DNA of 64,000 nt from a virus: the IMG/VR virus record IMGVR_UViG_3300045988_001753, positions 1-64,000 of that record; one strand, given 5' to 3'. Below the pieces are notes generated by a model. It was not told where the DNA came from. It saw only the letters and a program-made list of their open reading frames with translations, and did not search any database. Of this stretch, positions 42,605-55,675 are shown piece after piece. The translations under genes and the position numbers were made by a program. The first letter of the stretch is position 1, and every line of letters starts with the position of its first letter.

Positions 42605-45600
42605 ATGGCAAGAAGTTGTGCAATTATTCCAAAGGTAAAGAATAGAAATGGTCAAGTAGTGGACAGCAAGTTATTTAAGGACTTGCTGTCCTTCACTTCA
42701 AACAATAGAAGTGAGGCTACAAGACTATATCTTATCACAAAAGCTGACTCTTTTATAAGAGATTGGAATCCAAGGCTAACATTAGATGAAAACAATGAAC
42801 CTACATTGAGAAGTTTGCTAAAGCAGACTAATCTCAGTAAAGTCATTCCAGAAACTAAAGTACTTGAGAGACTTAATAGGGAGATTGGGTACTATAAGAA
42901 AGGAATGGACAGACCAGCCCTATGGGTAAACAATGATGAGAATTATCAAAAGTTGAAACAAAGGGCTATAGCCTTTAATCAGAACTCAGAGTATAGGGAT
43001 GATTATGTGGCTAATATAGTTAAGATTCAAGACAGTGAATCTCCAAGAGTATTCATTGGAGTAAAGGTTGAGAAAAGAAACAGGTTTAACTCTATTAATG
43101 CAGATAAGATGGAATACAATGAAAACCTTAATAACAGGTTGAGGGGTATTCTTGAGTCTCATGGAATAGGGATAGGTGCTTTGACTGACCTTGAAAAGAG
43201 AATGGGTGTTCATGGTGTGACTGATTTTGATGTTGCAAGAAATGCAGCAAATGGTCTTGTTGAAATGATTAGGCTTGCTGATGGTATTCAAGGTGAAAGA
43301 GCACTTCCTGAGGAATTTGCACACTTTGCCATTGAAGCTATGGGAGATAATCCACTTATCACAAGACTTATCAATAATATATCTTCCAATGGACTGGCAA
43401 GAGAAATTATAGGTGAGGACTATGATACCTATGATACTCTATATCATAGTGATGAGATTAAGTTGGCAAAAGAAGCTGCGGGTAAATTACTTGCAAAGCA
43501 TCTTCTTCAAGGTGAGAATATCCCATCTGCTCCTTATAAGAATCTACTGCAAAGAGTAATCCAAGCAGTTAAGAATTTCTTTAAGAATATTAGTGCAAGT
43601 CCTATACAAAGAGCCATGAAGGAGGCTGACAAGAACTTTGGTTCTTTAGCGCAGCAAATACTTAATGGCAGCATGGATGAGGCTATTGATGTTAGCAATA
43701 TAGCTTCAAATGGGGTATTTTACAGTACCTCAGAGAGAGTGGCAAGAGATAAGAAGTTACTTCAAGGAATCATTGAGAATGAGTTGAAGAGATTGAAGAT
43801 TTATGAAAAGAGAAATCCTAATAGCCAGTTTAGTGCTAATCAAAGGTTACTAATTGATAGATTGGATATTGAATTAGCTGATAACAATGAGATTGAAGGT
43901 ATTTATACTTTTGTTGAGAATGCTCTTGAAGAATTAACCAAGGTAAGTGACAGGCTTACTATGCTACAAAATACTCCTGCTACTAATGTTAATGAGAGAG
44001 CCAGAGTACTAAGAGATGTCAGAAACTACTTGTATAGTTACAAGCATATTACTGATGATATTAGGAAGGCTCTTATTGATGAAGAGAAGTATGCAGACAA
44101 TAGATATGGTCAGAGAGTAAGGGTAGTATTGGACAATACAACTACATTACTTGGAGACTTGTTTGTTAGATACAACAATGTGGCAATGCCTCTCTTTGTT
44201 GATTTCATTAAACCTTTTGTAGGAGAGAGTATAACTGTTCCTTTTGGCAAGTTCAAAGGCAAGACTATGACTGCTGAAGACTTGGTTAAGATAGCTGACA
44301 AGGACATATCTTTCTTTGACAGATGGCTTGACTCTATGGCAGACTCTTCAGATTATATGCTGAAAGTTATGGACCAAGCTGTCAAGAAGAGTAAAGAAAA
44401 TGCAAGGTTGGAGACTATCAATGTTATGAAGGAGCTTCAAGCTGCTACCATTAAGTTAGAGCAAGCTGGAGTTAAGAGCACTGATTGGATGTTTGAAAGA
44501 GACAGTAAAGGCAATCTTACAGGTAATTATATCTCTGAGATTAATCAAGGTCTATTCAAAGAGAAAGTCAGGGAAATGTTCAAGTCTCTTAATGAGAAGT
44601 ATGGTAAGAATCCTGTAGGAGATAATGCAGAGAAGTACAGAAAGGAGAGACAAGCTTGGTTTGATGCTAATATGGAGGTAGTCAATGGAAAGAAGCAACC
44701 TAAAGTATCAATCTATGGCAATAAGGCTTATCAGAACTTGAATCCTGCCCAGAAAGAATACTACAACAAGATTATGGAGATAAAAGCCAAGCTGGATTCA
44801 TACCTTCCTGACAAGTACACTACCTTAACTAATGCAGTTAAAATCAGAAAGAACCTACTTGAAAGAGTAAAGGCATCTGATGGTGTAAAGTCAGGTAGTA
44901 CACAAGTATGGGAAGCTGTTAAAGACCAATTCATTAGAAGAACAGATGACACTGAGTTTGGAGATAGGGCTACAGTAAAGGACTTTGAAGGTAAAGAGGT
45001 GCAAGTACTTCCTATCTACTATACTAAGATGAAAGAGGGTGAAAGCCCTAATGACCTATCTACTGATATAGTATCTACTCTCACAGCTTATGCAGCTATG
45101 GCTAATGACTTCAATGAAATGAATAAAGTAATTGATGTTCTTGAGCTTGGTAGGGATATGCTAAAGGAGAGGGAGATTATACAGACAAGAGGTGGTAAAC
45201 CACTGGTTGAGAAGTTTAAGTCTGTAGGTAGGAGAGTAGAATCTACTCTCACTAAGTCTGGTGATGAAACAAGATTTATGCAGAGACTAAATGACTTCTT
45301 TGAGATGCAGGTCTATGGTAGATACATGGCTGATGAAGGCACATTTGGTAATACTAAAATTGATAAAGGAAAGGTGGCTAACTTTGTTAATAGGATGACT
45401 TCTCTTAATACATTAGCTGTCAATGTACTATCAGGTATTTCCAATGTGGCTACTGGTGGAGTTATGATGAGGATTGAATCTTTCTCTGGAGAGTTCTTTA
45501 ATGAATCTAATACTCTAAGAGCTGACAGGAACTATGGTCAAGCCCTACCTGAATTTCTTGCAGAGATTGGTAATAGAGTCAAGACAAGTAAACTTGCTTT

Positions 45601-46660
45601 GTGGGATGAATTATTCAATGTAATGCAGGAATATGAGACTGATGTTAAGGAAGTAAATTTTGACAGAAAGACTTGGTTCAGTAGAATGTTTGGTACCTCT
45701 GCTTTATTCCTTATGAATAATGCTGGTGAACATTGGATGCAGAATAGAACCTCATTAGCACTTGCAGATGCTTATAAAATGAAAGCTCCTGATGGTAAAA
45801 TAGTGTCTCTATGGGATGCTATGGAAGTGGTTCCTATTGATAAGAATAACAAGAAATTAGGTGCTAAGTTACAGTTAAAGCAAGGTTATACTAAGGAAGA
45901 TGGGTCTGCATTTACAAGAGATGATATTATAGCATTCAGTAGGAAATCTGCTGCTATAAATCAGAGAATGCACGGTATTTACAATAAGGCTGACAGAAGT
46001 GCAGTACAAAGGTTAGCTGTGGGTAGAATGGGTGTCATGTTTAGAAAGTGGATTAAGCCATCTTTGAACAGAAGATTCAAGTCTGCCACATATAACTATG
46101 ACTTGCAAGCATGGACAGAAGGTTACTATAATACCACAGGTAGGTTCTTGATGCAGCTTGCTAAGGAATTGAAAGAAGGTCAGTTTACATTAGCTGCAAA
46201 TTGGAACCAACTTTCCAAGACTGAGAAAGCAAATATCAAGAGAGCTGCAACTGAAGTAGGACACTTCTTAGCAGTAGCACTTGTACTTGGTCTTATGGAC
46301 TGGTCAGATGACAAGGATAGACCTTGGTTGGCTAAGATGGCAGAATATCAGGCAAGAAGATTATACACTGAATTAGGTTCATTGATTCCTGGACCTCAGA
46401 TGGTTGGAGAAGGATTGAAGATTATAAAGTCTCCTGCTGCTGGCATTAATACTCTTGAAAATACTCTTGATTTAATTGGACTTATGAATCCATTTAATTA
46501 TGAAGTATTTGCTGGAGAAGATGCTTTGATACAATCAGGCAGATATAAAGGAGAGTCTAAGGCAACAAGACTATTCTTTGAATCTCCACTTATTCCAATG
46601 AACAAAACTATTTATAGAGGTTTGCATCCTGAGGAAGGTATTCCATTCTTTAAGCAATAA
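42605..46660 (+). CDS. giant virion/cargo protein candidate (1351 aa)
   Basis: Starts 4 nt after the vRNAP stop. Has a C-terminal hydrophobic segment VGHFLAVALVLGLMDW and is followed by a strong terminator. No catalytic motif recognised. Confidence 0.5.
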   Translation: MARSCAIIPKVKNRNGQVVDSKLFKDLLSFTSNNRSEATRLYLITKADSFIRDWNPRLTLDENNEPTLRSLLKQTNLSKVIPETKVLERLNREIGYYKKGMDRPALWVNNDENYQKLKQRAIAFNQNSEYRDDYVANIVKIQDSESPRVFIGVKVEKRNRFNSINADKMEYNENLNNRLRGILESHGIGIGALTDLEKRMGVHGVTDFDVARNAANGLVEMIRLADGIQGERALPEEFAHFAIEAMGDNPLITRLINNISSNGLAREIIGEDYDTYDTLYHSDEIKLAKEAAGKLLAKHLLQGENIPSAPYKNLLQRVIQAVKNFFKNISASPIQRAMKEADKNFGSLAQQILNGSMDEAIDVSNIASNGVFYSTSERVARDKKLLQGIIENELKRLKIYEKRNPNSQFSANQRLLIDRLDIELADNNEIEGIYTFVENALEELTKVSDRLTMLQNTPATNVNERARVLRDVRNYLYSYKHITDDIRKALIDEEKYADNRYGQRVRVVLDNTTTLLGDLFVRYNNVAMPLFVDFIKPFVGESITVPFGKFKGKTMTAEDLVKIADKDISFFDRWLDSMADSSDYMLKVMDQAVKKSKENARLETINVMKELQAATIKLEQAGVKSTDWMFERDSKGNLTGNYISEINQGLFKEKVREMFKSLNEKYGKNPVGDNAEKYRKERQAWFDANMEVVNGKKQPKVSIYGNKAYQNLNPAQKEYYNKIMEIKAKLDSYLPDKYTTLTNAVKIRKNLLERVKASDGVKSGSTQVWEAVKDQFIRRTDDTEFGDRATVKDFEGKEVQVLPIYYTKMKEGESPNDLSTDIVSTLTAYAAMANDFNEMNKVIDVLELGRDMLKEREIIQTRGGKPLVEKFKSVGRRVESTLTKSGDETRFMQRLNDFFEMQVYGRYMADEGTFGNTKIDKGKVANFVNRMTSLNTLAVNVLSGISNVATGGVMMRIESFSGEFFNESNTLRADRNYGQALPEFLAEIGNRVKTSKLALWDELFNVMQEYETDVKEVNFDRKTWFSRMFGTSALFLMNNAGEHWMQNRTSLALADAYKMKAPDGKIVSLWDAMEVVPIDKNNKKLGAKLQLKQGYTKEDGSAFTRDDIIAFSRKSAAINQRMHGIYNKADRSAVQRLAVGRMGVMFRKWIKPSLNRRFKSATYNYDLQAWTEGYYNTTGRFLMQLAKELKEGQFTLAANWNQLSKTEKANIKRAATEVGHFLAVALVLGLMDWSDDKDRPWLAKMAEYQARRLYTELGSLIPGPQMVGEGLKIIKSPAAGINTLENTLDLIGLMNPFNYEVFAGEDALIQSGRYKGESKATRLFFESPLIPMNKTIYRGLHPEEGIPFFKQ

Positions 46661-46664
46661 TAGC

Positions 46665-46716: not shown

Positions 46717-46725
46717 ACATAAATG

Positions 46726-46782
46726 AAAGGGTCAAAAATACCCCTATACTAATTACAGCATAGGGTTATTCTTGACCCCTTT
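46726..46782 (-). terminator. hairpin, candidate terminator of the minus-strand block
   Basis: GGGTCAA (46729..46735) pairs with TTGACCC (46772..46778), and inner CCCTAT pairs with ATAGGG. The tail on the minus strand is T-rich. Imperfect. Confidence 0.4.
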
Positions 46783-46804
46783 ATAAAAAATTTCATCCTG
46801 CTGA

Positions 46805-49800
46805 TTAAAAGGCTATACACTTAACAGCTTGGTCTCTCTCCTTTTGAGAGATTGAATCAAACTTCTCTGCTGTCCAACCTTTCTTCAATAAATTCTCCTG
46901 CATAGAATCACTTAAAGTATTAAATGATGTAGTAGTTGAAGTAGTACCTCTCAATTCACTGATAGTAGGAACTTTGAATGTACTATCTGCATACTTACCC
47001 TCATTAATTCTTCTATAGTAATCTATTAGGGAAGGTCTAAAGTTATTCCAGTTAGTAACCTTAGCAAAGAGTTCCTTGAAGAAATCAAGTATTCTCTTAC
47101 CTAAGCCCCTATTCTGTCTTGTCATTACATACTCTCTGAAACCCTCTGCCATATCTTCCTCAAGAGAGAGATTATCTTTCTCACCATATAACTTTCTTGC
47201 TTCATCATATAATGCCTGTCTCTCATTATTGTCAAGAAGGAGATTAAATACAGCATGGAATGCTTCATGGTATGCAGTACCTTCAGCAGCTATGTCAGAC
47301 AATGTGATTACACCTTTATCAAATTGACCCCAAGCTAAGGCACCTTGTCTGCCTACTTTAATAAGACCTTTTACTACTTGTACTTTATCATTCTCACTTA
47401 ATTGAGGTAGCACTCTACTAATCCAATTAAGTTCCTTTTCCTGATTCCATACTGTAGCTTCTGTGTCATTTACTCTTCTTAGGGTAAATTCATCCTCAAA
47501 CTCTTCATCATGGTCATTTATTGCCTGTTCCTTTTGAGCAGTATAGGCAGCACCTGTCTGGGTATTACCTTGATTAATAGTTGCAGGAGTTTCCACAGTA
47601 GTGATAGGAGTAGCACTTACAGTAGGTACTGCATCAGGGTCAAACAATATAGTCTTTTCTGATGCTAAGTCTTTCATTCTTTGAGGATTACCTAATAAAG
47701 CCTTTCTCATGGAATCCTCAACTTGAGATTCACTCATACCTCCTTGTACAGGGTTATTCTTTATAAGTAAGAATGTTTTACCATTAGGGAATACTGCATA
47801 GTAATTATTTGAAGCTACATGAGATTCTTCTCCCTGTCTGCCAAATCCCTTGGTTATATTAGGAACCTTGGTTATATGGACATCTACTTCTGTAATACCT
47901 GCAATAGGAGTTAAATACCCTTTATGTAATTTACCATCCAACTCAAAGTAACCTACTCCCTCATCAGCATTATTCATACTGTGTTCAGGTGTCAAATCTT
48001 CAATAGGGTTCTGTGTCTCTAATGAAGTCTCAAAGATAGGTAATACTGTCTGAGCTTGTGCTGGAGTAGCAGGAGTTCCTGTAGATTTATCTACTTTAAC
48101 TGCACTTGCTAAAGGCACATTAACAGCAGGATTGTATGCAATAGGAATACCCTTTTCACTTTGTACTGCTGATACATTCTCCTTATCATAACTCAATACA
48201 AATGGCATTACAGCTAACTTAGTAACTGGTACACCATACTGAGATTCAAATAAGTTCTTGTAAGCAGAAAGTTGTAAAGTATAGTAATCCTTCGCACTCA
48301 TTCTCTGAGTAGCAGATGGAGTAGTAAAGTAATTAACCTTATGACCATATCTGTCTGTAAAGTCATAGAAGCTGTATCTACTTGTCTTTACATCATAGAT
48401 TCTAAAGTTACCATCCTTATCAACAGAGAGAATATCAACCTCACCTGCAACTCTTGTACCATCAGGATATTTCTGGAACAATACAATATTGTCAGCAAGG
48501 AATCTTTCTCCCATTTGTTCCATGTTTGACTTAACTCTATTAAGAGTGGTAATTAAATCTATGAAAGCACTCTCTGACATATTAGATGGTCTTGCTATCT
48601 TAGATACATCTCTTATAGTAAAGTACTGTCTAATAATACTATCTATTGCTGAGCCAGCATCAAGTGCTCTTTGTGAATTAGTACCAGACATCTTATCTCT
48701 TACTATATTCACAATAGTATCTCTACTCTTAGCATCAGTCTTTCCTTGATAACCATCAAGATTAATCTTATACTTGTTTTCAAGGAACTTCAAGTAATTG
48801 TCAAATTGAGTAGGAGTATCAACTAACTGTGATAGCTTGGTTCTTACTTGTGTTAGAGCCTCTGTTTGCTTAGGAGATTCTACCCAATTAGAACCTAATC
48901 TACTATGCACTCTACTATATTGGTGGTATTCACCATCATCTTCAAGTACATAGTAAAACTCACCATCAGTTCTTGTCTTGTCTATTCTCTTTTGGTTCTC
49001 ATATATTTCACTGATAACCTCCTTAGACTTGGCAACTCTATCTTCTCTTTCTTTCTTCCTACCTGCAATAGTATCCTTAACATCTTGTGCCTCTTGACCA
49101 CTGAGATATGTCTGCTTGCTTCTATCAAGTACTTTACCATCAGGAGTAAGAACCTTGTTATCTACCATCATTGAAGAGTTAGTAGAATCCCCGAAGTTAT
49201 CTTGTGCCCAAGCTAAATCAAACAATATTCTGTTACTGTCAGTAACTTCTACAGTCCTACCTTGGTCATCTCTGATAGTGTTTGTCTTTAAGTCTACATA
49301 GTATGGCTTATTTGAGAATATAGATACTATTCTTGTGCCTGCAATAGCACCCTCAGTACCACCTACAGGAGTTTCTACTTTCCTCTTAGGTTGAGGAGCT
49401 ACAGAAGCTGGACTTATAGCCTGATGTAAGTTACCTTCATTATCAAAGTAATCAGTTGTAAACCAATTACCTCTTACTGAAGCCTCAGTAATATTTGAAG
49501 TAAGGATATTAGAGTTTATCAACCTATTGTTGTATGCACCTTCATTTATTCTCCTTGTGCTGACCTGCAAAGGAAGATTAAACTTAATAAGGTGTCCAAG
49601 TATTTCATTGTATATATCCTCAGGATTCTTAGGAGTACCTAATGCACTTGTATCTCCTAAATCTTCAAGAGCAGTTACATCAAAGTTTATACCCCCAATC
49701 TCTGCACTCTTACTACTTGTAGAGAAATATACATCATACTTATCCTCCTTGATTTGCTCCTTTCCATTAATGATTACCTTCTCATAAGTACCATCTGGCT

Positions 49801-52800
49801 TTCTTACCTTCTTACTGATAACAATACCATCACCTGCCCTACTACTAAACCAAGTAACCATAATATCCTGCATATACAAGTCTTGTGCCAAGTCTTGCAT
49901 TGCAGCAGATACATCATCCTGTGATGTAGCAGTTGATAACTTAGTAATGGCATTCTTTATATCTTCTCCAACAGGAGTAGAACTTATGTTACTATCATTC
50001 AGATTAAACTCTTCATTGTTGAAGTGCTTAACCCTTACAGCAGCAGGAGAATACTTACCAGCTCCATTAGGTATAAGCAGATATAATCTACCTTCCTTTT
50101 GGCTCATATCCACTGGCTTGATAATAAGACTATCATCAATCTTACCATTAGTGGTAAGAACACCATTCTTTATAATACCAAAGACAGGCTTTCTATCAGT
50201 TGAAGATACATTAGGTATCTCAGATAGACTTCTCTCAGTATTACCATAGGGAATCCTACCTACCATTACCTTAGATACCTTTGTAACAGGTGTGGCAATG
50301 AACTTACCAGTCTTATTTTGCCTGTTAGCATATTCACCTCTTATCTTCTCTTCAAGACCCTTCAAACCCTCATACCTTGAAACACTATAATCAGACTCAT
50401 CCAAACTACCTACTACTTGGTTGTTTCTTTTGTCTACAATGAAGATTGTATTCTCATTATAGTCTGGGTCAATCATAAAGCCAAGTTCATCACCTGCCTT
50501 TAAGTTACCCTCATTTACATATCTGAATGCTCCTTGGTCTCTTAGATAACCATAAATGCCAGAGAAGTCTACATTCTTTTCTCTCTCACTTACTACAATA
50601 TCAAATGGTCTAAAGTCTCCTTCCTTACTTGCCTCTATATGCAGTTCAGGTATAGCAGGTCTATAGAATTGATTAGAAGTATCTCTACTTGGTCTCTGTG
50701 GAGTTTCTACCCTTTCATTGGCTTTCTTATTCTCCTCATTAACCATCTCAGCAGTTATATTACCTACAGGTAATTCTGTTGTAGGTAAGTCCTCACTACT
50801 TGTTACAGTAGGAGTAGTAGATGTACCACTATCCCCCGTAGTATCTCTTCTATCATCACCTCTTACAGTCCCCTCTCTTTTCTCTACAGGCTTCTTATAT
50901 TCAGGTGAGAATCTATCCTTGAATCTATTGTCATTATTTACCTGAGACATTGCATTCTGCAAAGCATATTGAGCCTCTTGGAATCTTGTTGCAGACAACT
51001 CAACATCACCCTCAGAATCTTCATCAAAGGCATTCTCATTATTGATATAAATTGAGTTGGGATTAGCCAACTGTTCAAGGTTTTCAGAGTTACTGAACTG
51101 GTCTTGAAGGAGCTTCATAGCATCTTGTTTAACCTGTGGTTCTGCATCTGACTCATTAAGAACTCTTCTCACCTCATTATTGTATTGTGAAGTTTCTCTG
51201 TAGTTCTTAGCCATCTCACTACCTTCATCCTCAAGTTCTTTTAGAACTCTATCCCTATTCTCTATATCATCTTGGGTATCTATGATACCCCTGAACTCCT
51301 GTAAATTCTGTGCAGCATTCAAAGATACTTTCAAGTCATCAGACTTCTTCTTAGCTTCTTGTTGCACAGCTTGTTCATCAGCTCTTGCATGGTCTTCTGC
51401 TTGCTTTTGAGGATTTTCAAGATACTCTTTCAGCTTTGCATTATATGTCTTTGAGGCATTACCTAACTTAACAATATCATTTAGCTTAGTTGTAATATCT
51501 TCTTTCTCATCTGCACTAAGTACAGTCTCATCTACCTCATTAATTTCCTTGATAAGACCATCTACAAACTTAGGATTAGTTGCCAATGTATGAGCCAATG
51601 TCTTATCATCCTGACTTCTTACAAGATTAAGAGTATTTATTGCACCTTGAATAGCTCTTACATTCTCATCTGCTTGTCTGTATCTGTCAGTTAAATCAGC
51701 ATGAGTTTGACCTTCAAAATCTCTTATCTGCTCATTGAACCTAAGGAATGAATCTAAGTTACCTAATACACTACCTATTGCAGATTTTACTTCTCCAGAC
51801 ATAGCTGTTGCCCTTTCAGCCCAGTTGCCTATCTGAGACTTCATCCATGTCAATTCTTCAAGCTGGTCATCTGATAATTGCTGACCTGTCTTAATATCAA
51901 GCTCATCTTTTATCTTCAGATAATTGTTGATAGTGTTGGTCATTTCATCATGGTTCTGCTGCAACTTCTCTATCATTTCCTGCTTGCCTTCTGGAGTAGC
52001 ATACATAGGATTACCATTCTTATCAACAAATGGACCTACCTTAGAGCCATCTTCAAGAGTAGTTGTAGTGTTTTCCACAATAGAGGCAAGATTTTCATCT
52101 GATGTATCAAATGCTGTGTTAATTAAGGTAGTGAGGTCTTCCATTCTACCTGCACTATCAAACATGGCAATATCAGATACTAATTGAGCATGTTCTGCAT
52201 TCTTGAAGCTGAACTCATCACCTTCCTCAGCAGCTCTATTCATATCATTCTGATACTTATTATGCCTGATAAGACCTTGATAGTAGTTCTTAAATTCAGG
52301 AGAGTTTATCCTGCTATTCATGTAGTTAGCAATCTCATTCTCTCTTGCTATCTTCTCATTATAGTCTCTCCATTCATTTATGGCACCACCCTCAATAGTG
52401 ATTGGAGACTGAATACCACCTTGTGCATTTCTTACACTTCTGAATCTTGGCATACCTAATGCACCTGTCAAAGAACCAATAAAGAACTCTTCCCATACAG
52501 AGCCATCATTTACTGTCTCATTGATTCCCTCAGCAAATGATTTAGTCCAACTTAGTGTTTCTTGAGAAGCTTCTGGGTCAGTCTTTGACTTATAGAAGTT
52601 GTTTACATCAGTAGAGTAATAATTACCTGCTATTCTACTTGCAGCACCCTGTGCCATTTCCTCAGTACCTTCAGATAATGCACCCTTTGTTATTGCAGTA
52701 GCAGCACCTAATCTTGTAGTACCAGCAGTATATTCTCCTGCCTTACCTACTATATTAGTAGCCTTTCTTGCAGTCTTGAATCCATTAGCATATAACTTGC

Positions 52801-53866
52801 CAAACTGGATTATATTAGATGCAGTAAGGATAGGTATATTCATAAGCAAGTCTGCATTACCCATCTTTAGTCTATCCTCATTCAGTTTACCAAGTGCTGC
52901 ATTGTAAGCTTCTCTTTCCCTTGCAATAGCATCCTGATATTTTACATAAGCTGGGTCTACAAACTGATTGCCTTCTACACCACTTCTTACAAGCTCCTTT
53001 CCTGCATTAGCTTCATATTCAGCCTGTATTGCATCTAACCTTTCCCTTAGACTGTCATCAAGCTGTGCTTTATGAAGCTCAAACCAATCCTTACTATTGT
53101 TGAGTGCTTCAATTCTGCCCTCATTTACTGCTGAGATAGTAGCACCTACAGCAGTATTAACTATTGCTGGAGCCTTTGAAGACTTAGCAATAGCACCAAT
53201 GAGTTGAGGTAGCTTAGTTACCTTCAATCCAGCAGCAGTAACACCACCACTATAGAAAGCACCTACTGTGAAACCTAAGTTCTTGATAAACTTATCACCT
53301 AAGAAGTTAGCAGTGAAGATATTTTCATACCAAGGCTGCTCTTGTTCTGCCCTTGTATAATAGTTAGGTAATGCCTGCTCAGACCATTCATTAACAGACT
53401 GCATAGCTTTAGAGAAGTCATTATCCCAAAGACCAGACCATCTGCCTTCACCTATTGCAGTACCAGCTCCAAATATCAAACCTACAGTACCATCAAGGAA
53501 AGTAGTACCTGCAAGTATAGCACCTTTAGCAAGACCTGCTCCTATTTGTGCATACCAAGGCTGATTCTCTGCTCTTATATCTCCCAGTTCTTGGAACTGA
53601 GCTTCTGTTGCAGTAGGTTCATCAAACATACTCTCACCCCAAGGTGTAGCAGTTCCCTCTAATGAAGTTGCAACCATTTGCTCACCATGTGCCCTTGCAT
53701 CATACAATGAAGTAGGAGCAGTATTTGCTCCTACATTCATGCTGAATGACTGAAACTCAGGACTAAGGTTAGTGTATGGCTCTTGATTTGCTTCCTGCAA
53801 ATCTCTGAAAGTCATTGGACCACTCTTAGTAATATCTATATCCTTTACTTTAGTTTCTTTTGCCAT
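46805..53866 (-). CDS. giant multidomain virion/ejection protein with PD-(D/E)XK nuclease-like and HExxH zincin-like motifs (2353 aa)
   Basis: Gly/Ala-rich hydrophobic N-terminal segments and a long charged coiled region. AGEVDILSV...FRIYDVKTS at about 48386..48450. YHEAFHAVF (HEAFH at 47255..47269) with EEDMAEGFREY downstream. Confidence 0.6.
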   Translation of the reverse strand: MAKETKVKDIDITKSGPMTFRDLQEANQEPYTNLSPEFQSFSMNVGANTAPTSLYDARAHGEQMVATSLEGTATPWGESMFDEPTATEAQFQELGDIRAENQPWYAQIGAGLAKGAILAGTTFLDGTVGLIFGAGTAIGEGRWSGLWDNDFSKAMQSVNEWSEQALPNYYTRAEQEQPWYENIFTANFLGDKFIKNLGFTVGAFYSGGVTAAGLKVTKLPQLIGAIAKSSKAPAIVNTAVGATISAVNEGRIEALNNSKDWFELHKAQLDDSLRERLDAIQAEYEANAGKELVRSGVEGNQFVDPAYVKYQDAIAREREAYNAALGKLNEDRLKMGNADLLMNIPILTASNIIQFGKLYANGFKTARKATNIVGKAGEYTAGTTRLGAATAITKGALSEGTEEMAQGAASRIAGNYYSTDVNNFYKSKTDPEASQETLSWTKSFAEGINETVNDGSVWEEFFIGSLTGALGMPRFRSVRNAQGGIQSPITIEGGAINEWRDYNEKIARENEIANYMNSRINSPEFKNYYQGLIRHNKYQNDMNRAAEEGDEFSFKNAEHAQLVSDIAMFDSAGRMEDLTTLINTAFDTSDENLASIVENTTTTLEDGSKVGPFVDKNGNPMYATPEGKQEMIEKLQQNHDEMTNTINNYLKIKDELDIKTGQQLSDDQLEELTWMKSQIGNWAERATAMSGEVKSAIGSVLGNLDSFLRFNEQIRDFEGQTHADLTDRYRQADENVRAIQGAINTLNLVRSQDDKTLAHTLATNPKFVDGLIKEINEVDETVLSADEKEDITTKLNDIVKLGNASKTYNAKLKEYLENPQKQAEDHARADEQAVQQEAKKKSDDLKVSLNAAQNLQEFRGIIDTQDDIENRDRVLKELEDEGSEMAKNYRETSQYNNEVRRVLNESDAEPQVKQDAMKLLQDQFSNSENLEQLANPNSIYINNENAFDEDSEGDVELSATRFQEAQYALQNAMSQVNNDNRFKDRFSPEYKKPVEKREGTVRGDDRRDTTGDSGTSTTPTVTSSEDLPTTELPVGNITAEMVNEENKKANERVETPQRPSRDTSNQFYRPAIPELHIEASKEGDFRPFDIVVSEREKNVDFSGIYGYLRDQGAFRYVNEGNLKAGDELGFMIDPDYNENTIFIVDKRNNQVVGSLDESDYSVSRYEGLKGLEEKIRGEYANRQNKTGKFIATPVTKVSKVMVGRIPYGNTERSLSEIPNVSSTDRKPVFGIIKNGVLTTNGKIDDSLIIKPVDMSQKEGRLYLLIPNGAGKYSPAAVRVKHFNNEEFNLNDSNISSTPVGEDIKNAITKLSTATSQDDVSAAMQDLAQDLYMQDIMVTWFSSRAGDGIVISKKVRKPDGTYEKVIINGKEQIKEDKYDVYFSTSSKSAEIGGINFDVTALEDLGDTSALGTPKNPEDIYNEILGHLIKFNLPLQVSTRRINEGAYNNRLINSNILTSNITEASVRGNWFTTDYFDNEGNLHQAISPASVAPQPKRKVETPVGGTEGAIAGTRIVSIFSNKPYYVDLKTNTIRDDQGRTVEVTDSNRILFDLAWAQDNFGDSTNSSMMVDNKVLTPDGKVLDRSKQTYLSGQEAQDVKDTIAGRKKEREDRVAKSKEVISEIYENQKRIDKTRTDGEFYYVLEDDGEYHQYSRVHSRLGSNWVESPKQTEALTQVRTKLSQLVDTPTQFDNYLKFLENKYKINLDGYQGKTDAKSRDTIVNIVRDKMSGTNSQRALDAGSAIDSIIRQYFTIRDVSKIARPSNMSESAFIDLITTLNRVKSNMEQMGERFLADNIVLFQKYPDGTRVAGEVDILSVDKDGNFRIYDVKTSRYSFYDFTDRYGHKVNYFTTPSATQRMSAKDYYTLQLSAYKNLFESQYGVPVTKLAVMPFVLSYDKENVSAVQSEKGIPIAYNPAVNVPLASAVKVDKSTGTPATPAQAQTVLPIFETSLETQNPIEDLTPEHSMNNADEGVGYFELDGKLHKGYLTPIAGITEVDVHITKVPNITKGFGRQGEESHVASNNYYAVFPNGKTFLLIKNNPVQGGMSESQVEDSMRKALLGNPQRMKDLASEKTILFDPDAVPTVSATPITTVETPATINQGNTQTGAAYTAQKEQAINDHDEEFEDEFTLRRVNDTEATVWNQEKELNWISRVLPQLSENDKVQVVKGLIKVGRQGALAWGQFDKGVITLSDIAAEGTAYHEAFHAVFNLLLDNNERQALYDEARKLYGEKDNLSLEEDMAEGFREYVMTRQNRGLGKRILDFFKELFAKVTNWNNFRPSLIDYYRRINEGKYADSTFKVPTISELRGTTSTTTSFNTLSDSMQENLLKKGWTAEKFDSISQKERDQAVKCIAF

Positions 53867-53869
53867 ATC

Positions 53870-55675
53870 TTAATATCCATAAGGATTAAACTCTTGTTCT
53901 TTTGTCTTATTCTGTACTCCTAATTGAGAATGGAATAAGTAGGCTTGCTGTATAGCCTGTGCATATTGTTGCTGTGCATAAGTAATTTCATCTGGAGTAG
54001 CCTGATGTACATTACCTCTTGCATCAGTATATTGCCCTGTATTGACTACTTGTTGCCATTGATTTGCAGCAGCCATTGCCCTATCTCTATTCTGCTCATT
54101 AGTTGTATTGATACCAGCAGGCATTCTGAATCTTCTCACATTGCCCTTGTCATCTTGTATCATTACAGTAGTACCATAAGGACTGAATCTTGTAGCAGTT
54201 ACTTTGTATTTATCACTCTTCAAGTCTTCCATAGTGATTTCCTCACCTGTATCCCTGAATTGCTTAGACTTGCTATCATAATCTACCTCTTTAAGACTTA
54301 ATCCTCTACCAGCAGTCATAATAGCATCCTTCATATCACCCTGTTGGGCACTTGCAATAGGGTAGTCATACTCAGTAACTCTTGTAGCATCATATCTTGC
54401 AGTTCTTGCTGCTGGAGAATTATTAGCATATCTATTCCATACATTACCAAGATTGCCAGGCTGCCACTTGCCCTTTGTCACACTATAAGCACCTATGCTG
54501 TCCATGAACTGCCTGAATGCAGTAGGAGTGAATTTCTTACTGCCATTCTGCATTTGTGTTTCTACATTCATAAGTCTTGCAGTACCACTACCAGAACCTG
54601 CTGATGTTACTCTTGGGGTAGCATTTCTGGTATATTCCTGCCAACCAGCCCAAGTCATTCTCATCTGACCATGATTATCTTTGTAGAAGTACTTAGAGTA
54701 TCTTTTCATATCCTCCTTATACTTCTTCTCATCCTTACTTAGTTCTCTACTACTGTAGATATTCAAAGGATTGATAGCTAAACTATTAAGCCTTGCTTGT
54801 CTCTGCTCTTCTGCCTTTCTTGCAGCAGCTCTTTTCTCTGCCCTAATCTGCATAGCTTCTTGTTCAGCCATCTTAGCTCTCCAATTATCAAGAGTCTGGT
54901 ATTGAGTCTCACCAACTGCACTCCATAGACCTTGCTTAGCATAGTCAATAGCCCTTGCAATAGTGGCTTGGTCTCCCCAGTTCCTAACTCCACTTGAATT
55001 AATGGCATCTTCAACAATTCTTGTAAGTTGAGGAGCAGCATTAGGATTATCCTGTATAGCCTGTAATACTGCTTGAGAACTGAAGCCTTTCTGCATCATA
55101 GTCTCATAGTATGAATTACCTAAGATGCTTCTCCACTTCCTTGGCTTCTCTTGCATTTCCTTAGCCAATGCAGATGCAGCACTTGCAGCCTGTGCAGTAA
55201 TTAACTTACCTGAATATGCTTCATAAGCTAATTGAGGATTCCTTATGTAATCATCAAGACTTGTAGTTGCAGCTCTTCTACTCAACATCAATGTTGGGTC
55301 TTGAAGGAGTGCTTTTTGTTGCTCTTCTGCTTGCTTCTGTCTTGCTGTATAGGCTTGTTCAATAGGAGTTATCTCCTTACTGTACCTTGCTCTCATATTG
55401 AGCATATCCCTTCTACTTGCAGCATTAAGTCCTTCTCTTGCTAACTGACCTGCTTGCTCTTCAAGGTCATTTGCATAGGTCTTGTACATCTTGTAAGCAT
55501 AAGGGTCAGTCTGTTCATTAGCCATTTCCTCCCATACACTTGCCTTAGTAGCAAGCTCTCCATACTGGTTCTCCAACTCTTGATGAGCCTGAGTAGCCAT
55601 CAAGGTTGGAGCCAGCATCTCTTGATAAGAGAATGGCTTGAATTGTGAATTTATTACTAAACTATAATTAGCCAT
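53870..55675 (-). CDS. virion structural/internal protein candidate (601 aa)
   Basis: Tightly packed between giant structural ORFs. Gln/Ala-rich helical N-terminal half. No motif recognised. Confidence 0.45.
   Translation of the reverse strand: MANYSLVINSQFKPFSYQEMLAPTLMATQAHQELENQYGELATKASVWEEMANEQTDPYAYKMYKTYANDLEEQAGQLAREGLNAASRRDMLNMRARYSKEITPIEQAYTARQKQAEEQQKALLQDPTLMLSRRAATTSLDDYIRNPQLAYEAYSGKLITAQAASAASALAKEMQEKPRKWRSILGNSYYETMMQKGFSSQAVLQAIQDNPNAAPQLTRIVEDAINSSGVRNWGDQATIARAIDYAKQGLWSAVGETQYQTLDNWRAKMAEQEAMQIRAEKRAAARKAEEQRQARLNSLAINPLNIYSSRELSKDEKKYKEDMKRYSKYFYKDNHGQMRMTWAGWQEYTRNATPRVTSAGSGSGTARLMNVETQMQNGSKKFTPTAFRQFMDSIGAYSVTKGKWQPGNLGNVWNRYANNSPAARTARYDATRVTEYDYPIASAQQGDMKDAIMTAGRGLSLKEVDYDSKSKQFRDTGEEITMEDLKSDKYKVTATRFSPYGTTVMIQDDKGNVRRFRMPAGINTTNEQNRDRAMAAANQWQQVVNTGQYTDARGNVHQATPDEITYAQQQYAQAIQQAYLFHSQLGVQNKTKEQEFNPYGY

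What the first reader, a model, noticed from the sequence alone, without database searches (positions are those of the whole stretch)
46805..53866. 2353-aa protein combining membrane-like Gly/Ala segments, a PD-(D/E)XK nuclease-like motif and a C-terminal HExxH zincin-like motif
The N-terminal roughly 260 residues contain Gly/Ala-rich hydrophobic stretches (IGAGLAKGAILAGTTFLDGTVGLIFGAGTAIG, FTVGAFYSGGVTAAGL). A long charged coiled region follows. A restriction-endonuclease-like core is present: VAGEVDILSVDKDGNFRIYDVKTS, i.e. D...D-x-K, at about 48386..48450. The C-terminal domain has TAYHEAFHAVF (HEAFH at 47255..47269) and a candidate third ligand in EEDMAEGFREY about 35 residues downstream, which is a gluzincin-like arrangement. 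A virion protein carrying both a nuclease and a metalloprotease would be an injected effector rather than a simple building block. It could degrade host DNA or defence proteins, or process itself after ejection.
Basis: partly seen in the sequence, partly recalled or inferred. Interest (0 to 1): 0.65.

Follow-up and report, generated by a model that had tools for sequence, protein, structure and literature searches.

The report
Crassvirus injected multi-enzyme cargo protein
This giant gene is the counterpart of gp47 of the gut crAss-like phage ΦcrAss001, a protein carried inside the virus particle with the phage's RNA polymerase; it does carry a DNA-end nuclease and a zinc-protease-like module, both already noted for this family, but its single cysteine is part of an apparently undescribed pattern suggesting that three injected proteins are joined end to end.

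Summary
In detail: a 2353-aa ORF at 46805..53866 (-), with every quoted motif at the stated place. The window is a crAss-like phage of Steigviridae. The protein is the orthologue of ΦcrAss001 gp47, a virion "cargo" protein next to the virion RNA polymerase.

- **Nuclease:** it has all RecB-family motifs, conserved in 95-100% of divergent relatives. A confident model matches EXO5, RecE and Cas4.
- **HExxH module:** HExxH and EExxAExFR are nearly invariant and the model has zincin topology. No solved zincin matches significantly. The only significant matches outside crassviruses are phage "polyvalent" proteins.
- **Relatives:** some add an ADP-ribosyltransferase after the zincin, so the family is a polyvalent injected effector protein.
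- **N-terminal Gly/Ala module:** it is conserved but falls below the usual transmembrane hydrophobicity threshold.

Published genomics had already flagged both enzyme domains, so the finding is a new member of a known kind.

One thing I found in no paper I could search. This protein's only cysteine lies four residues from its C-terminus. The polymerase has cysteines at both ends. The third protein has its only cysteine at residue 5. The rule holds in phages down to 21% identity. It suggests a disulfide-linked gp47–RNAP–gp49 chain.

The parts
46805..53866 (-). CDS of the 2353-aa gp47-like virion cargo / polyvalent protein (the stop codon is 46805-46807)
   Evidence: It is 46% identical to ΦcrAss001 gp47 over aa 78-2350 and 77% to the cr85_1 orthologue. 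Synteny with gp43-gp50 is shown.
53210..53572 (-). Conserved N-terminal Gly/Ala-rich module (aa 99-219).
   Evidence: It matches phrog_32390 at E 6.9e-13, at the same position (103-223) as in the 1957-aa profile. It is shared with the MS-verified virion protein gp038 of Cellulophaga phage phi4:1 and with phi14:2 gp67. The hydrophobicity maximum is 1.49.
50867..53086 (-). Acidic, charged region (aa 261-1000), presumably helical. It is the least conserved part.
   Evidence: Composition and net charge of -45, and 22-49% identity to crAss001 in 150-aa windows. Bayfield 2023 reports helical AlphaFold models for gp47.
50612..50866 (-). Ser/Thr/Pro/Asp-rich linker (aa 1001-1085)
   Evidence: Sequence and composition.
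49067..50611 (-). Conserved middle region of unknown fold (aa 1086-1600). It is also present in the shorter cr111_1 and IAS-virus orthologues.
   Evidence: BLAST/tblastn segments 1096-1611 and 1104-1514. No family hit. It was not modelled.
48113..49027 (-). RecB/RecE-like PD-(D/E)XK nuclease domain (aa 1614-1918)
   Evidence: PHROG 298 'exonuclease' at E 1.3e-9. PDDEXK_1 is hit weakly in 18/20 diverse members. The AF2 model has pLDDT 89.9. Foldseek PDB gives EXO5 1.2e-4, RecE 2.1e-4 and Cas4 4e-4, all with probability 1.0.
48386..48445 (-). Nuclease catalytic motifs II and III: G1808-E-V-D1811 ... D1825-V-K1827
   Evidence: D1811 91/91, D1825 87/91, K1827 87/91.
48260..48274 (-). Nuclease motif QxxxY (Q1865-L-S-A-Y1869), a hallmark of the RecB / lambda-exo / Cas4 branch
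   Evidence: Q 88/90, Y 84/90.
47567..48076 (-). Spacer domain plus Thr/Pro/acidic linker between the nuclease and the zincin (aa 1931-2100)
   Evidence: It is a separately matching segment in relatives. The nuclease lies N-terminal of the zincin in 69/70 proteins, with a median gap of about 170 aa.
46937..47446 (-). Zincin-like (HExxH + Glu) metallopeptidase-like domain (aa 2141-2310)
   Evidence: The AF2 model has pLDDT about 90 in its core, with a helix, a small sheet, the HExxH helix and the Glu helix. The same module in Suoliviridae polyproteins aligns by hhalign at 99.9% probability, E 5e-31. BFVD matches phage 'large polyvalent protein' entries at E 1.6e-3, probability 1.0. No significant PDB or Pfam match.
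47255..47269 (-). HEAFH (aa 2200-2204): predicted zinc ligands H2200 and H2204 and general base E2201
47135..47158 (-). E2237-x3-E2241-x-F-R2244 on the downstream helix. It holds the predicted third zinc ligand, E2241 or E2237.
46808..46936 (-). Conserved C-terminal helical tail (aa 2311-2353) ending ...ERDQAVKC-IAF. C2350 (46817-46819) is the only cysteine in the protein.
   Evidence: one Cys. 65 of 123 zincin-bearing relatives end with E[RKQ]xxAxxC followed by at most 5 aa, and the motif is never internal. 70/70 gp47-like ORFs in IMG/VR loci have the C-terminal Cys.
46732..46765 (-). Terminator-like hairpin (10-bp stem) with a T-run, about 40 nt downstream of the stop codon, in the 144-bp convergent intergenic gap
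   Evidence: 2 terminator-like sites found against 0.4 expected.
35129..42601 (+). Neighbour: virion RNA polymerase (gp50-like, gp66-like; 2490 aa). It has a cysteine at residue 3 (35135-35137) and 9 residues from the C-terminus (42572-42574).
   Evidence: 6VR4 match at E 1.5e-29. Cysteine positions.
42605..46660 (+). Neighbour: gp49-like / phi14:2 gp65-like protein (1351 aa). Its only cysteine is residue 5 (42617-42619).
   Evidence: BLAST to phi14:2 gp65 at E 9.5e-29. Cysteine position. C5 is invariant in alignment A4.

Best explanation
The gene encodes the crassvirus gp47-type cargo protein. This is a very large protein made late in infection, packed inside the capsid with the virion RNA polymerase (gp50-like) and its partner (gp49-like), and expelled into the Bacteroidales host with the DNA.

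It is built like a phage 'polyvalent protein':
- A conserved N-terminal Gly/Ala-rich module shared with other large virion proteins. I infer it acts in packaging, in ejection, or in contact with the envelope.
- A long acidic region, presumably helical, followed by a conserved region of unknown fold.
- A cassette of a RecB/RecE-like PD-(D/E)XK nuclease, a spacer of about 170 aa, and a zincin-like metallopeptidase.
- A short conserved tail that ends in the protein's only cysteine.

Shown here: orthology and synteny, the nuclease fold and an intact active site, conservation of the HExxH...E site, and the polyvalent character of the family.

Inferred:
- After ejection the nuclease acts on DNA ends. 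The target could be host or competing DNA, or the entering phage genome.
- The zincin cuts protein. It could cut the cargo proteins themselves, for example to release modules or activate the self-inhibited polymerase. It could instead cut a host target.

The GenBank label 'putative RNA-polymerase subunit' reflects gene neighbourhood only. No polymerase-like domain was detected in this protein.
For: **Identity and context**
- 46% identity to gp47 over 97% of its length, with the same gene order gp43-gp50.
- the neighbouring gene is the 6VR4-type RNA polymerase.
- (Bayfield 2023): gp47 was detected in virions by mass spectrometry, assigned to the capsid cargo zone, and is expected to be ejected partly unfolded.

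**Nuclease**
- Searches give the motif conservation, family hits, model and fold matches.

**Zincin**
- near-invariant HExxH and EExxAExFR.
- the model topology equals the zincin core described.
- the same module sits in Suoliviridae polyproteins (E 5e-31).
- the model matches phage polyvalent proteins at probability 1.0. Its weak tail of hits is enriched in M48, IrrE and other metalloprotease entries.
- the weak top PDB hits are SPRTN, MATCAP and anthrax-lethal-factor-like folds.

**Polyvalent nature**
- relatives carry ART-PolyVal (E 1e-22 and 1e-15) directly after the zincin, and one carries cpYpsA.
- polymerase relatives are fused to ART-PolyVal, PDDEXK_1 or helicase domains.
- the nuclease precedes the zincin in 69/70 proteins.

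**Literature for the family**
-.
Against: - No enzymatic activity has been measured for any member of this family.
- The zincin assignment rests on motifs, model topology and matches to other predicted structures. Foldseek against the PDB gave no significant hit (best E 0.85). Profile searches of PDB sequences and of Pfam found nothing.
- hhalign to the N4 virion-polymerase metallopeptidase gave P 0.007 and a probability of only 6%.
- The nuclease misses Pfam's gathering score: 18.5 bits for the whole protein and 21.4 bits for the isolated domain, against a cut-off of 22.
- Both enzyme modules are dispensable in some orthologues. cr111_1 and phi14:2 gp67 lack both, and IAS virus has the nuclease in another gene. 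They are therefore accessory to the core gp47 function.
- Virion presence is taken from the ΦcrAss001 orthologue, not from this phage.
Confidence: 0.75

Rival explanations
1. The three polymerase-block proteins are joined head to tail by disulfide bonds in the virion: gp47 C-terminal Cys to RNAP N-terminal Cys, and RNAP C-terminal Cys to gp49 N-terminal Cys. They would leave the capsid as one thread in a fixed order and come apart in the reducing cytoplasm. On this view the key feature of gp47's C-terminus is the tail cysteine. The enzyme modules are passengers. This complements the main explanation rather than excluding it.
For: -: gp47-like has 1 Cys in 2353 aa, 4 residues from the end. gp49-like has 1 Cys, at residue 5. 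The RNAP has Cys at residue 3 and 9 residues from the end. The same holds in ΦcrAss001 and phi14:2.
- among 36 RNAP homologues down to 21% identity, 31 have a Cys in the first 5 residues and 33 in the last 5. In 21 of them these are the only two cysteines.
- in 7 further diverse genomes every gp47/67-like protein has exactly one Cys, in its last 5 residues. The gp49/65-like protein has its single Cys at residue 3-5 in 5 of 6.
- 70/70, 80/80 and 63-66/66 in IMG/VR loci.
- The positions correspond to the junctions of the proteins in the gene order gp67-gp66-gp65. Drobysheva reports the three fused into one polyprotein in some phages. Giant ORFs of 4300-4900 aa in Suoliviridae carry the gp47-type zincin.
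- the ΦcrAss001 virion uses many inter-subunit disulfides.
Against: - There is no direct evidence for any bond.
- The pairing partners are inferred only from gene order.
- The cysteines could instead bond to portal, capsid or cargo-1/2 proteins, bind a metal, or carry a modification.
- Part of the signal is shared ancestry, although the rule survives to 21% identity.
- The RNAPs of the window's lineage also keep 1-2 internal cysteines.
Confidence: 0.4
2. The nuclease serves early transcription. It would be a RecE/EXO5-like end-resecting exonuclease delivered with the polymerase, converting the entering genome end to single-stranded DNA, which is the template form the crassvirus virion polymerase prefers.
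For: [quoted passage not shown]
- the closest folds are DNA-end exonucleases (EXO5, RecE, Cas4, AdnAB, MGME1).
- The nuclease sits in the polymerase gene block and is co-packaged.
Against: - phi14:2 is the phage in which the single-strand preference was measured, and no copy of this nuclease was detected in its gp65-gp68.
- The module is absent from cr111_1's orthologue.
- Polarity and substrate are unknown.
- Resecting one's own genome is risky.
Confidence: 0.2
3. The nuclease is an anti-host or anti-competitor weapon that degrades host chromosome, plasmid or rival-phage DNA. The zincin is an effector that cleaves a host defence or envelope protein. Neither would process phage proteins.
For: - (Iyer 2017) lists this as one of the proposed roles for the metallopeptidase and other enzymatic domains of polyvalent proteins.
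- relatives carry ADP-ribosyltransferase domains. cites the packaged T4 Alt ADP-ribosyltransferase, which modifies host RNA polymerase, as the prototype of such host-modifying enzymes.
- Drobysheva et al. suggest possible digestion of peptidoglycan.
Against: - Only a few copies are delivered per infection.
- No target is known.
- A zincin active-site architecture is not typical of peptidoglycan hydrolases acting on glycan strands.
- The fixed nuclease-then-zincin order hints at a processing relationship.
Confidence: 0.3
4. The protein is a true subunit of the virion RNA polymerase, as annotated in GenBank, and the enzyme-like motifs are inactive relics.
For: - Annotation.
- Constant adjacency to the polymerase.
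- Fusion into one polyprotein in some phages, as reported.
Against: - No polymerase-like domain was found.
- phi14:2 gp66 is active alone in vitro.
- gp47 is expressed late, while gp49 and gp50 are expressed in the middle stage.
- Catalytic residues of both enzyme modules are conserved at 93-100%, which argues against relics.
Confidence: 0.08

Closest known systems
ΦcrAss001 gp47 (Kehishuvirus primarius), a 'RNA polymerase-associated' virion cargo protein (Bayfield et al. 2023; Shkoporov et al. 2021)
   Same: - 46% identity over aa 78-2350.
- The same gene order, gp43-gp47 converging on gp49/gp50.
- The same domain order, including the nuclease (62% identity), the HEAFH zincin and the C-terminal Cys tail.
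   Different: - A different genus. The nearest named phage is cr85_1, Kahnovirus oralis, at 77%.
- ΦcrAss001 has an insertion of about 40 aa after the Glu helix.
- ΦcrAss001 has a small gene (gp48) in the convergent gap, where this window has only 144 bp.
Phage and plasmid 'polyvalent proteins' with a zincin-like MPTase hub (Iyer, Burroughs, Anand, de Souza, Aravind 2017)
   Same: - A giant multi-domain, virion-delivered protein.
- An HExxH + Glu metallopeptidase-like module placed between other enzymatic modules.
- Relatives carry ART-PolyVal and cpYpsA.
- The model matches BFVD 'large polyvalent protein' entries.
   Different: - The crassvirus module does not hit Pfam MPTase-PolyVal or any peptidase family.
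- The term 'crAss' does not occur in the text of that paper.
- The N-terminal module is crassvirus- and Bacteroidota-phage-specific rather than MuF or ArdC-N.
RecB-family PD-(D/E)XK exonucleases (RecE, lambda-exo type, EXO5, Cas4, AdnAB nuclease, MGME1; Pfam PDDEXK_1)
   Same: - Motifs GxxD, DxK(T/S) and QxxxY.
- A fold match with probability 1.0.
   Different: - No cysteines, hence no 4Fe-4S cluster of the kind that, from my own knowledge, Cas4, AddB and EXO5 carry.
- An N-terminal helical extension of about 190 aa.
- Embedded in a virion protein.
- Below the Pfam gathering score.
N4 virion RNA polymerase C-terminal HExxH (MPTase, C1) domain, and phi14:2 gp65 'Zincin-like protease' (Drobysheva 2020, Yutin 2018)
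   Same: - An HExxH domain physically tied to a virion-packaged, ejected RNA polymerase.
- A similar three-motif layout: strand plus HExxH, then (N/E)E-hh-(A/S)(E/W), then an amphipathic 'F-x-K-x-L' helix.
   Different: - The profile comparison is not significant for the gp47-type module: P 0.007 against N4 and P 0.037 against gp65.
- N4 against gp65 gives 64% probability, P 6e-5.
- In phi14:2 the zincin sits near the N-terminus of gp65. That protein is the orthologue of the window's gp49-like protein, which has no HExxH.
- The gp47-type module is therefore a distinct family placed elsewhere in the gene block.

Membership tests
Orthologue of ΦcrAss001 gp47 (crassvirus RNAP-associated cargo protein) | Full-length sequence similarity | tested here: met
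   46-47% identity over aa 78-2350, E 0.
Orthologue of ΦcrAss001 gp47 (crassvirus RNAP-associated cargo protein) | Position after the tail tubular, muzzle, cargo-1 and cargo-2 genes and next to the RNAP genes | tested here: met
   Window ORFs 63010-63717, 58136-63007, 55677-58028 and 53870-55675, then the target. It converges on 42605-46660 and 35129-42601.
Orthologue of ΦcrAss001 gp47 (crassvirus RNAP-associated cargo protein) | Presence in the virion and ejection into the host | not testable with these tools
   Known only for ΦcrAss001 (by mass spectrometry) and for phi14:2 gp67. Ejection itself is inferred even there.
PD-(D/E)XK nuclease, RecB-like branch (Pfam PDDEXK_1) | Catalytic D ... 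(D/E)xK | tested here: met
   D1811, D1825 and K1827, conserved 91/91, 87/91 and 87/91.
PD-(D/E)XK nuclease, RecB-like branch (Pfam PDDEXK_1) | QxxxY motif | tested here: met
   Q1865 88/90, Y1869 84/90.
PD-(D/E)XK nuclease, RecB-like branch (Pfam PDDEXK_1) | Restriction-endonuclease-like alpha/beta core fold | tested here: met
   AF2 pLDDT 89.9. Foldseek gives EXO5, RecE and Cas4 at E 1e-4 to 4e-4 with probability 1.0.
PD-(D/E)XK nuclease, RecB-like branch (Pfam PDDEXK_1) | Pfam gathering score (22 bits) | tested here: not met
   18.5 bits for the whole protein and 21.4 bits for the isolated domain. 18/20 relatives hit weakly, best E 7.5e-5. PHROG 298 'exonuclease' hits at E 1.3e-9.
PD-(D/E)XK nuclease, RecB-like branch (Pfam PDDEXK_1) | Four-cysteine Fe-S cluster of the Cas4/AddB/EXO5 subgroup (a feature recalled from my own knowledge) | tested here: not met
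   There is no cysteine anywhere in aa 1-2349. It is therefore of the RecE/MGME1-like cluster-free type.
PD-(D/E)XK nuclease, RecB-like branch (Pfam PDDEXK_1) | Mg-dependent DNA cleavage | not testable with these tools
   No biochemical data exist for any gp47-type protein in the papers searched.
Zincin-like metallopeptidase (gluzincin type; MPTase of polyvalent proteins) | HExxH on a helix | tested here: met
   HEAFH at aa 2200-2204 lies in model helix 98-111. H, E and H are conserved 126/127, 125/127 and 127/127.
Zincin-like metallopeptidase (gluzincin type; MPTase of polyvalent proteins) | Third-ligand Glu on a downstream helix | tested here: inconclusive
   E2237 (123/126) and E2241 (117/126, plus 6 D) lie on model helix 133-152.
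Zincin-like metallopeptidase (gluzincin type; MPTase of polyvalent proteins) | Core of an N-terminal helix, a small beta-sheet and two helices | tested here: met
   DSSP of the model gives H43-59, strands 63-91, H98-111 and H133-152, with one inserted helix at 114-128.
Zincin-like metallopeptidase (gluzincin type; MPTase of polyvalent proteins) | Significant similarity to a solved or curated zincin | tested here: not met
   - Foldseek PDB: best hit SPRTN at E 0.85.
- PDB profile search: YME1 HExxH helix at E 0.35.
- Pfam: nothing, including MPTase-PolyVal and Peptidase families, apart from 1/23 M41 at E 0.03.
Zincin-like metallopeptidase (gluzincin type; MPTase of polyvalent proteins) | Structural similarity to domains of phage polyvalent proteins | tested here: met
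   BFVD 'Large polyvalent protein associated domain-containing protein' at E 1.6e-3 and 4.8e-3, and a polyvalent 'DNA methylase' fragment at E 8.7e-3. Probabilities are 0.91-1.0.
N4-type virion-RNAP MPTase clade | Profile-profile similarity to the N4 vRNAP aa 2120-2460 family | tested here: inconclusive
   hhalign gives P 0.0067, probability 5.7%, aligning only the strand plus HExxH. The reversed control gives P 0.08.
Polyvalent protein (Iyer et al. 2017) | Several unrelated enzymatic or effector domains in one virion- or conjugation-delivered polypeptide, varying between relatives | tested here: met
   Nuclease plus zincin here. Relatives add ART-PolyVal (P0121, P0142) or cpYpsA (P0268). Some relatives have one module only.
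Integral membrane / pore-forming ejection protein | At least one segment with transmembrane-level hydrophobicity | tested here: not met
   The Kyte-Doolittle 19-residue maximum is 1.49. 7 of 8 homologues have no window above 1.6. This is a crude test, since no dedicated transmembrane predictor is available.

The most novel reading that the evidence does not exclude
The single cysteine at the C-terminus of this protein is one link of a conserved 'terminal cysteine code'. gp47-type proteins end in a Cys. The virion RNA polymerase begins with MxC and ends in a Cys. The gp49/gp65-type protein begins with MxC. Almost all other cysteines are absent from roughly 6000 residues.

The most novel reading is that the three separately encoded cargo proteins are stitched head to tail by disulfide bonds in the oxidising virion. 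This would form a pseudo-polyprotein, the equivalent of the single fused polyprotein reported for other crassviruses. It would thread through the tail in a fixed order and be released by reduction in the cytoplasm. The zincin and nuclease would then act on the released modules or on DNA.
Probability: 0.4. Interest if true: 0.8.

Novelty: new member of a known kind. Interest (0 to 1): 0.5.

Why it matters
Crassviruses are the most abundant phages of the human gut. How they deliver and switch on their virion RNA polymerase is unresolved. Drobysheva et al. leave open whether the self-inhibited polymerase is activated by proteolysis. Bayfield et al. could not see the cargo proteins in their maps.

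This analysis does three things:
- It gives residue-level, testable active sites for the two enzyme modules of the gp47-type cargo protein.
- It shows that the family behaves as a polyvalent effector protein, with modules swapped between lineages, including ADP-ribosyltransferases.
- It points to a simple biochemical test, non-reducing gels or cross-link mass spectrometry of virions, for whether the three polymerase-block proteins travel as one covalent chain.

As a domain annotation the finding is ordinary. The cysteine rule is the part that could change how ejection is pictured.

Tried and rejected
1. **phmmer of the whole protein against PDB sequences.** Only a spurious phosphofructokinase hit on the Gly/Ala region.
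2. **Profiles of the zincin (A1/A2) and nuclease (A3) domains against PDB sequences.** Nothing significant. A 68-aa peptide around HExxH gave only spurious PPR-repeat and RecA hits.
3. **First homologous-protein search with the full protein.** It returned only 96-100% identical copies, useless for diversity. A search with the N4 C1 domain returned 2 hits.
4. **Specific homology of the gp47-type zincin to the N4 vRNAP MPTase or to phi14:2 gp65.** hhalign was not significant even after adding nine Suoliviridae sequences.
5. **Idea that the window's gp49-like N-terminus is a degenerate gp65-type zincin** (EEFAHFAIEAM resembles the Glu-helix motif). No support from hhalign. Rejected.
6. **Idea that C2350 is an MMP-like 'cysteine switch' for the zincin.** Rejected. 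The Cys tail is always at the extreme C-terminus whatever its distance from HExxH (134-1205 aa). It also occurs in orthologues without a zincin, cr111_1 and phi14:2 gp67.
7. **CaaX-box reading of C-[IVLA]-[AGS]-[FL].** I judged it a coincidence of form. Many lineages end directly in Cys or in C-K/C-N, and to my knowledge bacteria lack CaaX prenyltransferases.
8. **Anthrax lethal factor 'EEFFAEAFR' resemblance to EEDMAEGFR.** The motif is recalled from memory. The only support is weak Certhrax/CHT fold hits and the statement in Iyer 2017 that N4's domain hits lethal factor. It was not tested directly.
9. **Papers not held.** Yutin 2018 (PMC5736458) and the published Drobysheva 2021 paper could not be read. 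What they say is taken from the preprint and from Yutin 2021.

Full report
**1. What is there**

The window has a 2353-codon ORF at 46805..53866 on the minus strand. GC skew changes sign at about 46-47 kb, where plus-strand genes converge on minus-strand genes.

**2. Identity and context**

tblastn against GenBank phages finds full-length matches only in Crassvirales. Shorter matches to the N-terminal module also occur in Cellulophaga phages phi4:1 and phi17:2.

| Phage | Identity |
|---|---|
| cr85_1 (Kahnovirus oralis, Steigviridae) | 77% |
| cr128_1 | 59% |
| ΦcrAss001 gp47 | 46% over aa 78-2350 |

The neighbourhood reproduces ΦcrAss001 gp43-gp50:

| Window ORF | Strand | ΦcrAss001 counterpart |
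|---|---|---|
| 63010-63717 | - | tail tubular protein, gp43 |
| 58136-63007 | - | stabilization / muzzle protein, gp44 |
| 55677-58028 | - | gp45 |
| 53870-55675 | - | gp46 |
| 46805-53866 | - | gp47 (the target) |
| 42605-46660 | + | gp49-like |
| 35129-42601 | + | gp50-like |

The last of these matches the solved phi14:2 virion RNA polymerase, 6VR4, at E 1.5e-29. The target itself matches no polymerase and no other solved protein.

Three papers describe what is known for the orthologue:
- Bayfield et al. 2023 detected gp47 (262.5 kDa), gp49 and gp50 in ΦcrAss001 virions by mass spectrometry. They place them in a capsid 'cargo zone' and expect them to be ejected partly unfolded.
- Shkoporov et al. 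2021 found gp47 to be a late transcript, unlike gp49 and gp50. [quoted passage not shown]
- A terminator-like hairpin lies about 40 nt after the stop codon.

**3. Nuclease module (aa ~1614-1918)**

- Pfam PDDEXK_1 matches just below threshold. PHROG 298 'exonuclease' matches at E 1.3e-9.
- An exhaustive HMMER search with aa 1560-2353 found 1160 clusters at 50% identity with E up to 0.001.
- Over the best 150 of these, D1811, D1825, K1827, Q1865 and Y1869 are conserved in 93-100%. These are the RecB-family motifs GxxD, DxK and QxxxY.
- 18 of 20 diverse members hit PDDEXK_1.
- An AlphaFold model built on alignment A3 has pLDDT 89.9. It matches human EXO5 (E 1.2e-4), RecE (2.1e-4), Cas4 SSO0001 (4e-4), and the AdnAB, MGME1 and ACE1 nucleases, with probabilities 0.9-1.0.
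- The protein has no cysteine before residue 2350, so it cannot hold a four-cysteine Fe-S cluster of the kind I recall for Cas4 and EXO5.
- This is the best-conserved part of the protein, 62% identical to ΦcrAss001 against 46% overall.

**4. HExxH module (aa ~2141-2310)**

*Conservation.* H2200, E2201 and H2204 are conserved in 125-127 of 127 relatives. E2237 is conserved in 123 of 126. E2241 is conserved in 117 of 126, with D in 6 more. A2240, F2243 and R2244 are also nearly invariant.

*Distribution.* The same module occurs inside ORFs of 4300-4900 aa in Suoliviridae. These carry misleading annotations such as 'DNA helicase', 'DprA-like' and 'nuclear pore complex protein-like'. hhalign of nine such sequences against A2 gives 99.9% probability, E 5e-31.

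*Model.* The AlphaFold model has pLDDT 77.9 overall and about 90 in the core. It shows an N-terminal helix, a small sheet whose last strand leads into the HExxH helix, one inserted helix, and then the helix carrying E2237 and E2241. This is the zincin core as described by Iyer et al. 2017.

*What failed to match.*
- Pfam finds nothing.
- A profile search of PDB sequences finds only the YME1 active-site helix, at E 0.35.
- Foldseek against the PDB has no significant hit. Its weak top hits are zincins or zincin-derived folds: SPRTN, MATCAP, and Certhrax/CHT.

*What did match.* Against predicted viral structures the model matches crassvirus proteins strongly. Beyond them it matches 'Large polyvalent protein associated domain-containing' phage proteins (E 1.6e-3, probability 1.0) and a polyvalent 'DNA methylase' fragment. 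There is a non-significant tail of M48, IrrE and other metalloprotease entries.

I therefore treat 'zincin-like metallopeptidase fold with an intact-looking active site' as likely, at about 0.75, but not proven.

**5. Relation to the zincins already described next to virion polymerases**

The Drobysheva et al. preprint states, citing Yutin 2018, that phi14:2 gp65 and its orthologues contain a Zincin-like protease. It suggests the protease might activate the polymerase or digest peptidoglycan.

By synteny and BLAST the correspondences are:
- phi14:2 gp65 corresponds to the window's gp49-like protein (E 9.5e-29).
- phi14:2 gp67 corresponds to the target's N-terminal part (aa 50-268, E 1.9e-8).

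The modules are distributed differently:
- gp65 has HEIMH at residue 245. The window's and ΦcrAss001's gp49-like proteins have no HExxH at all.
- gp67 has neither the nuclease nor the HExxH.

The metallopeptidase-like module thus sits in a different protein of the block in different lineages.

| hhalign comparison | Result |
|---|---|
| N4-like MPTase alignment (10 Schitoviridae) vs gp65 | 64% probability, P 6e-5 |
| N4-like MPTase alignment vs gp47-type module | P 0.007, 6% probability |
| gp47-type module vs gp65 | P 0.037, collinear but not significant |

The gp47-type module is a distinct family. Its kinship to the N4/gp65 type is unproven.

**6. Polyvalent-protein character**

- Of 150 representative relatives, 70 carry both modules. 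The nuclease is upstream in 69 of the 70, about 170 aa from the zincin. A further 53 have the zincin only and 19 the nuclease only.
- cr111_1's orthologue (1638 aa) lacks both modules. IAS virus has the nuclease in another gene.
- Relatives P0121 and P0142 carry Pfam ART-PolyVal (E 1.3e-22 and 1.1e-15, above threshold) immediately after the zincin. P0268 carries a cpYpsA SLOG domain.
- Crassvirus polymerase homologues are themselves fused to ART-PolyVal, PDDEXK_1 or helicase domains in some lineages.

This is the architecture Iyer et al. call polyvalent proteins. They argue that the MPTase either processes the protein or attacks host proteins. I found no experimental work on either module.

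**7. N-terminal module**

Residues 99-219 match phrog_32390 at E 6.9e-13, at the same position as in the profile. That family includes gp038 of Cellulophaga phage phi4:1, a 1957-aa virion protein verified by mass spectrometry. That phage is classified in the genus Lightbulbvirus, outside Crassvirales.

The alignment shows a conserved pattern across crass lineages:

`QPW..Q...GLAKGA.LAGTTF.DG..G....G.......WDN.F...M..VNEW..E.LPNYYT..E...PW..NIF.ANF.GDK..KNLGF.VGA.Y.G`

Hydrophobicity stays below the usual transmembrane threshold. I infer a shared packaging, ejection or envelope-contact module. Membrane insertion is possible but unsupported.

**8. Mechanism**

Shown:
- A virion cargo orthologue.
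- An intact RecB-type nuclease site.
- A conserved HExxH...E site.
- Modular, polyvalent evolution.

Inferred:
- The protein is expelled with the DNA.
- The nuclease acts on DNA ends.
- The zincin cleaves protein.

One specific possibility draws on the preprint. Recombinant phi14:2 polymerase transcribes single-stranded or denatured DNA well, does not transcribe double-stranded M13 DNA, and transcribes the native phi14:2 genome only weakly. An end-resecting exonuclease delivered with it could supply template. Against this, phi14:2 shows no copy of this nuclease in gp65-gp68.

**9. An unexpected regularity**

The target has one cysteine, C2350, in the ending ...ERDQAVKC-IAF. The three proteins compare as follows:

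| Protein | This window | ΦcrAss001 | phi14:2 |
|---|---|---|---|
| gp47 / gp67 type | VKC-IAF at the end | LRC-NS at the end | ...NTIC at the end (only Cys) |
| RNAP, N-terminus | MSC | MSKRC | MAC |
| RNAP, C-terminus | ...SIC-GAPTLYSL | ...KIC-GANTLYEL | ...QEC-K |
| gp49 / gp65 type | only Cys at residue 5, MARSC | MAKKC | MSC |

The rule holds more widely:
- 65 of 123 zincin-bearing relatives end with E[RKQ]xxAxxC plus at most 5 residues. The motif is never internal, whatever lies between it and the zincin.
- Among 36 polymerase homologues down to 21% identity, 31 have a Cys in the first five residues and 33 in the last five. In 21 of them these are the only two cysteines in more than 1600 residues.
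- In seven further diverse genomes the upstream gp47/67-like protein always has exactly one Cys, within its last five residues. The downstream protein has its single Cys at residue 3-5 in five of six.
- In 80 IMG/VR loci the counts are 70/70 for gp47-like, 80/80 for gp49-like, and 63/66 (N-terminal) and 66/66 (C-terminal) for the polymerase.

The cysteines sit at the junctions of the gene order gp67-gp66-gp65. [quoted passage not shown] The ΦcrAss001 virion is known to use inter-subunit disulfides. Neither that paper nor the polymerase preprint mentions these cysteines, and a literature search found nothing.

The simplest reading is a head-to-tail disulfide chain that is reduced on entry. This is an inference, at about 0.4. 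Alternatives are bonds to capsid or portal proteins, metal bridging, or a modification.

**10. Verdict**

As submitted, the finding is a new member of a known kind. The terminal-cysteine rule, found on following up the C-terminus, is the part worth an experiment.

Noticed in passing
window 46817-46819 (C2350 of the target); 35135-35137 and 42572-42574 (RNAP C3 and C2482); 42617-42619 (gp49-like C5); also L001, L006, L008, L010/L011, L029-L113: Terminal-cysteine rule. The gp47/67-type proteins have their only Cys within the last 1-5 residues. The virion RNAP has Cys at residue 3-5 and within the last ~10 residues. The gp49/65-type proteins have their only Cys at residue 3-5. The rule is conserved down to 21% identity, with nearly all other cysteines absent. 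It suggests disulfide concatenation of the three cargo proteins.
   Followed up: partly
P0121 aa 2875-3002, P0142 aa 2856-3015, P0268 aa 4418-4498; P0295, P0301-P0306 (precomputed Pfam): Relatives of the target, and crassvirus RNAP homologues, carry ART-PolyVal ADP-ribosyltransferase, cpYpsA SLOG, PDDEXK_1 or helicase domains fused in. The whole polymerase gene block therefore behaves as a set of polyvalent proteins with swappable effector modules.
   Followed up: partly
L011 4998-9263 (phi14:2 g065, HEIMH at aa 245) versus window 42605-46660: The zincin-like domain cited in the literature for phi14:2 gp65 is absent from its orthologues here and in ΦcrAss001, which have no HExxH. Those phages instead carry a different HExxH family at the C-terminus of gp47. 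phi14:2 gp65's domain resembles the N4 vRNAP MPTase (hhalign 64% probability, P 6e-5).
   Followed up: partly
L003 and L004 (cr109_1, cr56_1 polyprotein genes); also L023, L025-L028: The giant Suoliviridae ORFs that carry the zincin module contain many in-frame TAG codons and no other stop codon: 50 and 23 in about 2800 codons. This is consistent with the TAG reassignment known for these crassviruses. Their GenBank product names (DNA helicase, DprA-like, nuclear pore complex protein-like) are misleading.
   Followed up: no
window 53210-53572; L009 5629-11502 (Cellulophaga phage phi4:1 gp038): The N-terminal Gly/Ala-rich module of the target is shared, at the same N-terminal position, with a 1957-aa virion protein of a phage classified outside Crassvirales (phrog_32390). 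This suggests a general 'large internal or ejected protein' leader module in Bacteroidota phages.
   Followed up: partly
window 46661-46804: The convergent gap between the gp49-like and gp47-like genes is only 144 bp and holds a terminator-like hairpin (46742-46765, minus strand). The same gap holds a small gene (gp48) in ΦcrAss001 and an HNH endonuclease gene in cr85_1.
   Followed up: partly
L022 8989-16545 (cr85_1 orthologue, 2518 aa): The closest named orthologue is about 165 aa longer, and the tblastn match is split in two pieces near the zincin region (query aa ~2060-2140). This suggests an insertion there. It was not examined.
   Followed up: no
L109-L112 (look-up of encoding contigs gene tables): Pfam now has crassvirus-specific families (crAss_CARG1, crAss_MUZ, crAss_MUZ_C) for the cargo-1 and muzzle proteins. 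It has none for the gp47-, gp49- or gp50-type proteins. One contig has a Phage_lysozyme2 domain fused to crAss_CARG1.
   Followed up: no
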